Part shown: one piece after another, positions 18,343-19,366 of the stretch
Position numbering within the stretch: position 1 is the first letter of the stretch
How the letters are laid out: each line of letters opens with the position of its first letter
NCBI GenBank assembly: GCA_963544995.1
Contig: CAUUHH010000001.1
Coordinates: forward strand, 31,465 to 95,464
Direction: 5' to 3'
DNA length: 64,000 nucleotides
From: an uncultured Alphaproteobacteria bacterium
GTDB taxonomy: Bacteria > Pseudomonadota > Alphaproteobacteria > Rs-D84 > CACZYB01
Notes under the pieces: generated by a model
What the model was told of the DNA's origin: nothing
The model's input: the letters and a program-made list of their open reading frames with translations, nothing else
Databases searched by the model: none
Translations under genes and position numbers: made by a program

Positions 18343-18489
18343 ACCCCAGTTCCTTCCTATTAGATTTTGGATTTTAGAAAATTGTATTTTAAATTGCAAG
18401 TAATAAACAAAATACATCATACTATGATAGAAAAAATTATAAAAAATTTGTTTAATATTTACTTTTGATATTGAAGATTATTTTTTGCT

Positions 18490-18507
18490 GTGATAAAATC
18501 ATATCAC
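18490..18507. promoter_or_regulatory. Perfect 18-bp palindrome (GTGATA-N6-TATCAC) in the divergent virB8 / DUF192-gene intergenic region; candidate operator.
   Basis: GTGATAaaatcaTATCAC lies immediately upstream of the AAGGAGG SD of gene 18530..19366 and ~150 nt upstream of virB8. Confidence 0.25.
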
Positions 18508-18529
18508 TTTATATAAGGAGGAAATTATT

Positions 18530-19366
18530 ATGGTTAAACCAACAAGTAAAAATAAAAAAGTAGCAGCAACTACTAATGCTGTAAAATCAGTAAAAGTTGC
18601 TAGTAAACCTGTTAAAAAAGTTGCTGTAAAACAAGCTGTTAAAACGCCAGCAAAAGTAGCATCCAAACCTGCAGCAAAAGCAGCGGTAAAGACTACATCA
18701 AAATCTGTTAAATCAGTAAAAACAAATACAAAATCAGTTGTAACGAAAAAAGTTGCACCGAAAAAAGCTGTGAAAGCACCGGTTAAAAATAAGAAGCTTA
18801 ACTCATCGAAATTTGTTTTAATATTGTCAATTTTGTTACTTATAGCAGCAGGTGTTTTGATAGGTATCAAAAAGTTTGTAGTTAAGAAAAATGTAAAAAC
18901 GACTGTATTTTCCCTTGTTTCAAAAGATGGGGTGCAAAAGGTTGATTTGAATTTGATGGTTGCTGATAGTGACCCTGTGAGGTTAAAAGGTTTGATGGGA
19001 GTTAAAAAATTGGCACCCAAAAGTGGAATGATTTTTGATTTCGAAGAACCAGGTTATTATTCTATGTGGATGAAGAATATGAAAATTCCTTTGGATATGG
19101 TGTTTTTAAATAATTATGGTAAGGTTATAGTTCTTGCACCAAATAGACCTGCAAATAATGAAGATTTGATTACTCCATGTTCAATTGAATTGGAAGGTAT
19201 GAAAGCAAGAAATAAGAAATTAAAATTGAATGAAGATAAATTTTTTGATAAGTGTGAAGAAAAATACCTTAAATATCCAAATTTAACCAGGTATGTATTG
19301 GAGCTTCCTGCAGGAACAATCAAAAATCATAATATGATGCTTGGTGATGTATTGCTTCGTAAATAA
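18530..19366 (+). CDS. Membrane protein with an N-terminal histone-H1-like Lys/Ala/Val/Pro-rich tail, a single TM and a C-terminal DUF192 (COG1430) domain.
   Basis: Residues 1-95 are K/A/V/P repeats (AKVASKPAAKAAVKTT…). TM is FVLILSILLLIAAGVLIGI. C-terminal …RLKGLMGVKKLAPKSGMIFDFEEPGYYSMWMKNMKIPLDMVFLNNYGKVIV… matches the DUF192 consensus. Strong SD AAGGAGG. Confidence 0.55.
   Translation: MVKPTSKNKKVAATTNAVKSVKVASKPVKKVAVKQAVKTPAKVASKPAAKAAVKTTSKSVKSVKTNTKSVVTKKVAPKKAVKAPVKNKKLNSSKFVLILSILLLIAAGVLIGIKKFVVKKNVKTTVFSLVSKDGVQKVDLNLMVADSDPVRLKGLMGVKKLAPKSGMIFDFEEPGYYSMWMKNMKIPLDMVFLNNYGKVIVLAPNRPANNEDLITPCSIELEGMKARNKKLKLNEDKFFDKCEEKYLKYPNLTRYVLELPAGTIKNHNMMLGDVLLRK

What the first reader, a model, noticed from the sequence alone, without database searches (positions are those of the whole stretch)
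18421..19366. Histone-H1-like Lys/Ala-rich tail fused to a TM helix and DUF192, divergent from virB8 with an 18-bp perfect palindrome between them
The 278-aa protein has ~95 residues of AKVASKPAAKAAVKTTSK-type repeats (cytoplasmic, likely DNA- or polyanion-binding) before a TM helix and a periplasmic DUF192 domain, an unusual combination. The shared intergenic region holds GTGATAaaatcaTATCAC (18490-18507), a candidate operator that could co-regulate this gene and the virB8-10 operon.
Basis: partly seen in the sequence, partly recalled or inferred. Interest (0 to 1): 0.5.

Follow-up and report, generated by a model that had tools for sequence, protein, structure and literature searches.

The report
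Lysine-tailed membrane-anchored DUF192 protein
The gene is real and encodes a membrane-anchored protein of the uncharacterised DUF192 family with an unusual lysine-rich tail, but the "palindrome" upstream is mainly the gene's own promoter, not a switch shared with the neighbouring secretion-system genes.

Summary

About 40 orthologues, from low-GC uncultured Alphaproteobacteria of animal guts, share this plan. Their tails range from 13 to 144 residues. Higher-GC relatives with the same insertion have lipoprotein or signal peptides instead. None of the non-subfamily DUF192 proteins I inspected has such a tail.

The regulatory reading fails:
- The "18-bp perfect palindrome" is two 6-bp arms around a non-symmetric 6-bp spacer.
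- It is unique in the window and not rarer than chance.
- Its left arm is the TGn plus -10 of a conserved extended -10 promoter.
- Its right arm is missing in three of the four virB8-adjacent relatives.
- The promoter also exists in relatives where atpG, not virB8, lies upstream.
- virB8 has its own conserved promoter about 95 bp away.

The conserved neighbour is rbfA, separated by a conserved terminator.

Verdict: an undescribed variant of a known uncharacterised family, with no shared operator. Interest is low to moderate.

The parts
18530..19366 (+). CDS, 278 aa: polycationic tail + TM anchor + DUF192 domain
   Evidence: ORF list; Pfam DUF192 E=1.5e-24; identical protein P0001 and about 43 orthologues
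18530..18808 (+). N-terminal tail, residues 1-93: disordered, K 29 / V 19 / A 16 %, no D or E, +27; inferred cytoplasmic
   Evidence: Composition. pLDDT 43-53 with no secondary structure. The only such tract in a six-frame scan of the 64 kb. Second-codon-position GC 0.43 against 0.26 in the rest of the gene, third-position GC 0.14. No Pfam hit at E<=10.
18812..18868 (+). Hydrophobic core of the single TM helix (residues 95-113, FVLILSILLLIAAGVLIGI); uncleaved signal anchor
   Evidence: AlphaFold2 helix 92-118, pLDDT 84-93. Aligned TM segment in all orthologues. The window protein has no cysteine near the helix, so no lipobox (sequence).
18899..19363 (+). DUF192 beta-barrel domain (residues 124-278; Pfam match 141-275); inferred periplasmic
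19172..19279 (+). Subfamily-specific two-helix insertion (about residues 215-250) with invariant Cys217 (19178-19180) and Cys242 (19253-19255); probable disulfide staple
   Evidence: 3pjy residues 97-101 span 36 profile positions. Helices 216-227 and 235-246. C217 and C242 are invariant in 42 sequences. They are the only cysteines in the protein.
18471..18499 (+). Sigma-70 promoter of the DUF192 gene: -35 TTGAAG (18471-18476), 17-bp spacer, TG (18491-18492), -10 TAAAAT (18494-18499)
   Evidence: Promoter scan, one of only two of the nine sites flagged TG-before-(-10). -35, TTTGTTGTGATA and the AAGGAG ribosome-binding site are conserved in alignment A2. Visible in 15 other orthologous upstream regions, with or without virB8.
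18490..18507 (.). Inverted repeat GTGATA-N6-TATCAC: left arm overlaps the extended -10, right arm lies at the expected transcription start
   Evidence: Sequence. Unique in the window. At chance level. Right arm not conserved. Hairpin only -4.0 kcal/mol.
18515..18521 (+). Ribosome-binding site AAGGAGG, 8 nt before the ATG
   Evidence: Sequence; AAGGAG invariant in alignment A2
19391..19424 (+). Intrinsic terminator (9-bp stem, T-run) between the DUF192 gene and rbfA
   Evidence: Terminator scan. An equivalent hairpin plus T-run is present in all 13 loci examined.
18371..18399 (-). Candidate virB8 promoter: TTGCAA (18399..18394), 17 bp, TAAAAT (18376..18371)
   Evidence: Promoter scan. aaATTGCAAg is conserved in L003, L083 and L084, with ATTACAAG in L085.
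17692..18342 (-). virB8, probable true CDS of 216 aa from the ATG at 18342, with ribosome-binding site GGAAGGAA at 18357..18350
   Evidence: Pfam VirB8. The relatives' VirB8 are 214 aa and the L002 gene call is 216 aa. tblastn similarity begins at residue 26.
19444..19809 (+). rbfA, the conserved downstream neighbour, a separate transcription unit
   Evidence: Pfam RBFA. Adjacent in all 20 subfamily loci with enough flanking sequence and in none of the distant DUF192 loci.

Best explanation
A monocistronic housekeeping gene encodes a single-pass inner-membrane protein of the DUF192/UPF0127 family.

Shown:
- It has its own extended -10 sigma-70 promoter (TTGAAG-17-TGaTAAAAT), a strong ribosome-binding site and an intrinsic terminator.
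- The product is a disordered, acid-free polycationic N-tail, one TM helix, and a DUF192 beta-barrel with a two-helix insertion carrying two invariant cysteines.

Inferred:
- The tail stays in the cytoplasm and the barrel faces the periplasm, where the cysteine pair forms a disulfide.
- The subfamily descends from lipoproteins or signal-peptide proteins. In the low-GC gut lineage the signal became an uncleaved anchor, and its positively charged N-region grew into a tail of 13-144 residues.
- Selection keeps the tail polycationic, so it most likely sticks electrostatically to a polyanion at the inner face of the membrane: anionic lipid, nucleic acid or polyphosphate. Which one is unknown.
- The biochemical role of the DUF192 barrel is also unknown, here as for the whole family.

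The GTGATA-N6-TATCAC repeat is the promoter's TGn/-10 element plus a fortuitous or mutationally generated complement at the transcription start. It is not an operator shared with virB8-10. Those genes have their own promoter and became neighbours only in this sub-clade.
For: Gene and family:

Architecture:
- residues 1-90 disordered, helix 92-118, barrel pLDDT above 90, inserted helices 216-227 and 235-246.
- C217 and C242 are invariant.

Periplasmic location of the barrel:
- Relatives with the same insertion carry lipobox or signal peptides (L015-L018; P0059-P0066).
- Saro_0823 was detected in the periplasm (PMC3608174).

Selection on tail charge:
- 0 acidic residues in 93, against 11.7% in the rest of the protein.
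- Tails of 39 orthologues are 28-54% Lys with 0-5 acidic residues, despite lengths of 13-144.
- Second-codon-position GC is raised to 0.43 while third-position GC is 0.14, so this is not AT drift.
- It is the only such tract in the window.

Promoter and terminator:
- (TG flag), alignment A2, 16 upstream regions, terminators in 13 of 13 loci.

Against a shared operator:
- (unique, chance level).
- (right arm absent in L083, L084 and L085).
- (atpG is upstream in L004; the shared ...GAEVLK...K* gene end upstream suggests the same for L005-L014; virB8 is adjacent only in L003 and L083-L086).
Against: - No experiment or computation here shows what the tail binds, the membrane topology, the disulfide or the transcription start.
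- The flank just after the TM helix is also basic (KKFVVKKNVK), so the local positive-inside signal is weak and topology rests on the whole tail and on homologues.
- The same hexamer pair GTGATA/TATCAC recurs at this promoter in 3 of 16 loci (window, L003, L006) against 0.48 expected. A purely chance origin of the right arm does not fully explain this.
- The extreme variability in tail length is also what relaxed constraint would produce.
Confidence: 0.62

Rival explanations
1. The inverted repeat is an operator for a dimeric regulator that co-regulates the DUF192 gene and the divergent virB8-10 operon.
For: Dyad symmetry is present at 18490-18507. It sits in a divergent intergenic region. L003, one of the four related virB8-adjacent loci, also has GTGATA/TATCAC.
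Against: - Spacing differs: 6 bp in the window against 1 bp in L003. A dimer cannot use both.
- It is absent in L083, L084 and L085, which share the virB8 arrangement.
- It is unique in the 64 kb and at chance frequency.
- It is centred on the DUF192 -10 and start site, about 95 bp from the -35 of the conserved virB8 promoter.
- The promoter predates virB8 adjacency (L006 and L008 with atpG upstream).
- Neither immediate neighbour is a regulator: Pfam calls them VirB8 and RbfA.
Confidence: 0.03
2. GTGATA/TATCAC is a real cis element acting only on the DUF192 promoter, for example half-sites for a factor that tolerates variable spacing, or auto-regulation.
For: 3 of 16 orthologous promoters carry this same hexamer pair against 0.48 loci expected to hold any G/C-containing 6-bp repeat. 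It overlaps the -10 and transcription start, a classical repressor position.
Against: There are three different geometries (N6, N1, and reversed order with N8), and the pair is absent in 13 of 16 loci. One arm is simply the conserved extended -10. Relatedness of the loci inflates the statistic. Template-switch (quasi-palindrome) mutation could create such complements without function (this mechanism is from general knowledge, not tested).
Confidence: 0.1
3. The tail is a true H1-like DNA-binding module that tethers DNA or the nucleoid to the inner membrane, possibly serving the adjacent type IV secretion system.
For: Composition resembles the Lys/Ala/Pro-rich tails of bacterial H1-like proteins. 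Examples are AlgP (PMC9239181) and Hc2, whose length also varies through lysine-rich units (PMC2848022). The tail is acid-free with +27 charge. virB8-10 are adjacent in five loci of the sub-clade.
Against: - No homology to any H1-like or Hc family.
- There is more Val/Thr/Ser and less Ala/Pro than in H1 tails (the H1 composition is from my own knowledge).
- There is no repeat array.
- Orthologues with tails of only 13-20 residues cannot do this.
- Linkage to the secretion genes is absent in most orthologues.
Confidence: 0.1
4. The long tail has no function of its own. It is a tolerated low-complexity expansion of the positively charged N-region of a signal anchor.
For: Length varies from 13 to 144 residues among orthologues with 41-60% identical domains, and no positional conservation exists beyond the first 10 or so residues. 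Short-tailed orthologues presumably function.
Against: Acidic residues are almost completely excluded across about 40 independent tails. Enrichment in Ala/Thr/Ser/Pro codons runs against the AT bias of the genome. No other such tract exists in the window.
Confidence: 0.15
5. The protein is linked to ribosome biogenesis or membrane tethering of ribosomes, with the tail binding rRNA.
Against: A conserved terminator separates the two genes in 13 of 13 loci. The barrel is predicted to be periplasmic. mt-LAF8 is not detectable by sequence. The adjacency is confined to one lineage and may be inherited gene order.
Confidence: 0.04

Closest known systems
DUF192 / UPF0127 (PF02643): structural-genomics proteins R01717 of Sinorhizobium meliloti (PDB 3PJY) and Saro_0823 of Novosphingobium aromaticivorans (PDB 3M7A)
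   Different: The solved proteins are about 130-140 residues with a cleaved signal peptide. This one has a 93-residue polycationic tail and an uncleaved TM anchor. It also has a roughly 35-residue two-helix Cys-Cys insertion where 3PJY has 3 residues. The function of the family is unknown.
Insertion-bearing DUF192 lipoproteins of higher-GC Alphaproteobacteria (P0059-P0066; L015-L018)
   Same: Same barrel with the same Cys-Cys helical insertion. rbfA is downstream in L015-L017.
   Different: These have a lipobox or ordinary signal peptide (for example LALAAC, FAGC) and no lysine-rich tail.
Bacterial histone-H1-like lysine-rich proteins (AlgP of Pseudomonas, Hc1/Hc2 of Chlamydia)
   Same: A disordered, strongly basic, Lys/Ala/Pro-containing low-complexity region whose length varies between strains or species (PMC9239181 and PMC2848022).
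   Different: There is no detectable homology and no regular pentamer or KPAA repeat. The tail is richer in Val/Thr/Ser. It is fused to a TM anchor and a periplasmic domain rather than being a soluble nucleoid or granule protein. Binding has not been tested.
Extended -10 (TGn) sigma-70 promoters
   Same: TTGAAG-17-TGaTAAAAT matches the TGnTATAAT class. It is conserved in position relative to the ribosome-binding site and start codon across orthologues.
   Different: The transcription start is not mapped. In the window and in L003 the sequence just downstream is complementary to the TGn/-10 region.
mt-LAF8, mitoribosomal large-subunit assembly factor of Trypanosoma brucei (PDB 6YXX chain EH)
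   Different: It is a 443-residue mitochondrial matrix protein. It is not found by sequence profile and has no signal anchor or lysine tail. The relationship may be distant homology only.

Membership tests
DUF192 / UPF0127 (PF02643) | Score above the Pfam gathering threshold | tested here: met
   86.3 bits against 27, E=1.5e-24, profile positions 2-94 of 96
DUF192 / UPF0127 (PF02643) | Fold of the solved family members | tested here: met
   [not shown]
DUF192 / UPF0127 (PF02643) | N-terminal export signal or membrane anchor placing the domain outside the cytoplasm | tested here: inconclusive
   One TM helix precedes the domain, relatives have lipoprotein or signal peptides, and Saro_0823 is periplasmic. 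Topology of this protein is inferred, not measured.
Histone H1 / bacterial H1-like proteins | Sequence homology to a described H1, Hc1, Hc2 or related family | tested here: not met
   No Pfam family for the whole protein other than DUF192. None for the tail alone at E<=10.
Histone H1 / bacterial H1-like proteins | Regular Lys/Ala/Pro short tandem repeats | tested here: not met
   Tandem Repeats Finder finds only one 15-bp unit at 2.1 copies. Composition is K 29, V 19, A 16, P 6.5%.
Histone H1 / bacterial H1-like proteins | DNA or polyanion binding | not testable with these tools
   Needs gel-shift, liposome or polyphosphate binding assays with the tail peptide
Palindromic operator shared by divergent genes | Dyad symmetry beyond chance expectation | tested here: not met
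   6-bp arms with an asymmetric 6-bp spacer. Such repeats occur 1.9-9.7 times per kb, and 13% of intergenic shuffles contain one.
Palindromic operator shared by divergent genes | Same site and geometry in orthologous intergenic regions | tested here: not met
   Absent in L083, L084 and L085. L003 has a 1-bp spacer. L006 has reversed order and no virB8.
Palindromic operator shared by divergent genes | Further copies at other regulon members (other type IV secretion genes) | tested here: inconclusive
   No other exact copy in the 64 kb. No other secretion-system gene among the 10 ORFs checked. The rest of the genome is not available.
Type IV secretion system accessory component | Conserved co-location with virB genes across lineages | tested here: not met
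   virB8-10 are adjacent only in the window's sub-clade (L003, L083-L086). They are absent from the other 77 DUF192 loci fetched.
Bacterial lipoprotein | Lipobox cysteine after the hydrophobic segment | tested here: not met
   The window protein has no cysteine before residue 217. Higher-GC relatives have canonical lipoboxes, and most low-GC orthologues keep a non-canonical FFPC.

The most novel reading that the evidence does not exclude
The acid-free lysine-rich tail is a selected cytoplasmic polyanion-binding module for DNA, RNA or polyphosphate. It would turn a periplasmic DUF192 protein into a trans-envelope tether in a lineage of gut Alphaproteobacteria. In the window's sub-clade this tether would work with the divergently transcribed VirB8-10 core, and the recurrent GTGATA/TATCAC symmetry at its promoter would be a real regulatory element.
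Probability: 0.08. Interest if true: 0.5.

Novelty: new variant of a known kind. Interest (0 to 1): 0.22.

Why it matters
DUF192 is a very large family: 15,189 representative clusters at 50% identity match at E<=1e-3. The held literature contains no functional study of it.

This subfamily has three distinctive traits: a disulfide-stapled helical insertion, a switch from lipoprotein to signal anchor, and a charge-selected cytoplasmic tail. Together they could give an experimental handle on the family and an example of a signal-peptide N-region growing into a new module.

For annotation, the practical points are:
- The palindrome should not be taken as a regulator site for the type IV secretion genes.
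- The virB8 start should be moved to 18342.

Tried and rejected
- Known operator types, compared by eye from my own knowledge and not with a tool. CRP (TGTGA-N6-TCACA): the window has TGTGA-N10-TCAC and L003 has N5, so the spacing is wrong. FNR (TTGAT-N4-ATCAA): GTGAT-AAA-ATCAT has a 3-bp spacer. The Fur box and DnaA box each need mismatches or a shifted centre. None is convincing.
- RNA element in the leader. Rfam gave only a sub-threshold PutA-thermometer hit (24 bits against 51, E=0.14). The repeat folds at -4.0 kcal/mol, and with the start expected near 18506 it would not be fully transcribed.
- Tandem-repeat origin of the tail: not supported.
- A lysine tail in a high-GC relative. The tblastn match of L015 to residues 19-278 suggested one, but the ORF shows a lipoprotein signal (MKSYRIMFLAALAFAGC) and no tail.
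- Other type IV secretion genes in the window as places to look for the motif. Ten ORFs checked, nine of them large, turned out to be BamA, GlgB, a PD-(D/E)XK nuclease, UvrA, an OmpA-like protein, RseP, RecJ, DnaK, a lytic transglycosylase and a small protein with no Pfam hit.
- Near-matches to the motif at 10944 and 10965 lie inside the gatB-like ORF.
- The afdb50 fold library was unavailable. Cluster look-up gave no names or accessions.

Full report
**What is in the sequence**

The window is low-GC (29.9%). It carries an alphaproteobacterial two-piece tmRNA.

Gene order around the finding:
- On the minus strand: virB10 (13798-16074, TrbI), virB9 (16112-17623, CagX plus a C-terminal SPOR domain) and virB8 (17692-18420 as the longest ORF).
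- On the plus strand: the 278-aa ORF at 18530-19366, followed by rbfA (19444-19809).
- Then, back on the minus strand: surA, lptD and lptF/G.

The real virB8 start is probably the ATG at 18342. It has a GGAAGGAA ribosome-binding site 7 nt upstream (read). It gives 216 aa, as called on L002, against 214 aa in relatives. The intergenic region is therefore 18343-18529, or 187 bp.

**The protein**

Pfam assigns DUF192 at E=1.5e-24 (86 bits against a cut-off of 27), covering residues 141-275. A profile of the subfamily hits only the two solved DUF192 proteins, 3PJY and 3M7A.

An AlphaFold2 model built on 42 orthologues shows:
- residues 1-90 disordered (pLDDT 43-53);
- a helix at 92-118;

Where 3PJY has three residues, this subfamily has about 35. 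They are modelled as two antiparallel helices, 216-227 and 235-246. Cys217 and Cys242 are the only cysteines in the protein and are invariant in 42 sequences. A stapling disulfide is my inference; I could not read the model's coordinates.

The tail (residues 1-93) is K 29%, V 19%, A 16%, S 11%, T 10% and P 6.5%, with no Asp or Glu and a net charge of +27. It matches no Pfam family even at E<=10. It is not a tandem array. It is the only tract of this kind in a six-frame scan of the 64 kb.

**Relatives**

A word-indexed search found an identical protein plus 43 orthologues at 41-60% identity. The genome scan places them in uncultured Alphaproteobacteria from rumen, deer rectum and human (Hadza) gut samples (record titles). 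These loci have 30-37% GC.

All orthologues share the plan of basic N-tail, TM helix and DUF192 with the Cys-Cys insertion (P0035, a truncated sequence, lacks the N-terminal part). Tail length runs from 13 to 144 residues. The tails stay 28-54% Lys with 0-5 acidic residues.

In the window gene, second-codon-position GC is 0.43 in the tail against 0.26 in the rest of the gene. Third-position GC is 0.14. The Ala/Thr/Ser/Pro content therefore runs against the mutational bias of the genome.

An exhaustive HMMER search found 15,189 DUF192 representative clusters. Only about 11 of these match across the insertion. Outside the low-GC clade, the insertion-bearing ones have lipoprotein or ordinary signal peptides (P0059-P0066; L015-L018). 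None of the longer DUF192 proteins I read has a lysine tail; they are tandem duplications or have unrelated N-termini.

The likely history is lipoprotein, then uncleaved signal anchor, then expansion of the basic N-region.

Saro_0823, a DUF192 protein, was detected experimentally in the periplasm with its signal peptide removed (PMC3608174). That result, the lipoprotein relatives and the cysteine pair all argue that the barrel is periplasmic and the tail cytoplasmic. I found no paper on the function of DUF192.

**Gene context**

The conserved neighbour is rbfA. It lies directly downstream in all 20 subfamily loci that have enough flanking sequence, and in none of the more distant DUF192 loci. 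However, a hairpin plus T-run terminator sits between the two genes in all 13 loci examined. The DUF192 gene is therefore its own transcription unit.

virB8-9-10 lie divergently upstream only in the window's own sub-clade: L003, L083, L084 and L085/L086. In L004 the upstream genes are ATP-synthase genes (atpA, atpG) on the same strand. The same ...GAEVLK...K* gene end upstream of L005-L014 suggests the same arrangement there.

No other type IV secretion gene turned up among the ten other window ORFs I checked.

**The palindrome**

It is a 6-bp inverted repeat with a 6-bp non-symmetric spacer, not an 18-bp palindrome.

Frequency:
- Such repeats occur 9.7 times per kb in this window, or 1.9 per kb if each arm has at least 2 G/C.
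- 13% of shuffles of the intergenic region contain one of the G/C-containing kind.
- The exact motif is unique in the window. Relaxed matches number 5 against 3.0 expected.

Position: the promoter scan finds TTGAAG-17-TAAAAT at 18471-18499 with a TG one base upstream of the -10. GTGATAAAAT is therefore the extended -10 element, and TATCAC falls at the expected transcription start.

Conservation: aligning the five virB8-adjacent intergenic regions shows that the -35, TTTGTTGTGATA and the AAGGAG ribosome-binding site are conserved. The right arm is not:
- L083 reads GTGATAACATACCA.
- L084 reads ATGATAACATAAGA.
- L085 reads GTGTAATAGACTTG.
- L003 has GTGATAcTATCAC, a 1-bp spacer.

The same promoter, including TGTGATAC, is present in L006 and L008, where atpG lies upstream rather than virB8.

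virB8 has its own promoter-like site, TTGCAA-17-TAAAAT at 18399..18371. Its TTGCAA is conserved in the sub-clade, and it lies about 95 bp from the repeat.

One residue remains unexplained. In 16 orthologous promoter regions, three carry a G/C-containing 6-bp inverted repeat against 0.48 expected. All three use GTGATA/TATCAC, but in three different geometries. This is compatible with chance inflated by relatedness, with template-switch mutation, or with a weak DUF192-specific element. I give the last about 10%.

**Mechanism**

Shown:
- a monocistronic unit made of promoter, ribosome-binding site, coding sequence and terminator;
- a tail, TM helix and DUF192 protein with a subfamily-specific insertion.

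Inferred:
- The N-terminus is inside the cell and the C-terminus outside, with a periplasmic disulfide.
- The tail is under selection for polycationic character. The chance of no acidic residue in 93 positions at the 11.7% frequency of the rest of the protein is about 1e-5, from the numbers. The same exclusion is seen across about 40 tails.
- The tail therefore binds a polyanion at the cytoplasmic face. Whether that is lipid, nucleic acid or polyphosphate cannot be decided here.

The role of the barrel is unknown.

**Comparison and verdict**

The protein is a member of DUF192 by every sequence and fold test applied. Its membrane topology is inferred, not measured. It is H1-like in composition only and fails the homology and repeat tests for that group. 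It is not a type IV secretion component by the co-occurrence test.

It is best filed as a new variant of a known but uncharacterised family. The regulatory half of the finding is not supported. Interest is low to moderate (0.22).

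Noticed in passing
window 16112-17623 (-): VirB9/CagX homologue of 503 aa with a C-terminal SPOR (peptidoglycan-binding) domain (Pfam E=3.4e-5, residues 462-501). The same SPOR hit appears in the orthologues on L083 and L085. I do not recall this fusion being described for VirB9.
   Followed up: partly
window 13798-16074 (-): VirB10/TrbI homologue of 758 aa. The TrbI domain covers only residues 444-663. There is a long N-terminal extension with weak ASH/Ig-like hits and a strongly acidic Gly/Asp/Glu C-terminal tail.
   Followed up: no
window 13410-13778 (-); L085 1002-1382 (-): A conserved small protein (122-126 aa) with a signal peptide lies directly downstream of virB10. 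It has no Pfam family and contains the conserved motif FEDIPLQ.G...LSFDTED.RVIEQY. No virB11 or virD4 follows the cluster.
   Followed up: partly
[not shown]
   Followed up: partly
window 17692-18420 (-): The longest virB8 ORF (242 aa, as called on the ENA contig) probably over-extends by 26 codons. The start with a ribosome-binding site is at 18342, which matches the 216-aa call on L002 and the 214-aa orthologues.
   Followed up: yes
window 18416-18428: A second 6-bp-arm inverted repeat, ATCATAcTATGAT, lies in the same intergenic region. It overlaps a weak minus-strand promoter-like site and is not seen in the relatives.
   Followed up: partly
window 18499-19020 (-): A 173-aa antisense ORF lies opposite the tail-coding region. 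It is most likely a by-product of the low-complexity lysine codons on the other strand, not a gene.
   Followed up: no
L004-L014, residues just after the TM helix: Most low-GC orthologues keep a conserved FFPC, LLPC or similar cysteine at the end of the TM helix. It may be a relic of the ancestral lipobox cysteine. The window's sub-clade has lost it.
   Followed up: partly
window 55650-55995 (-): Two-piece (permuted) alphaproteobacterial tmRNA gene, 153 bits. This supports the taxonomic placement.
   Followed up: no
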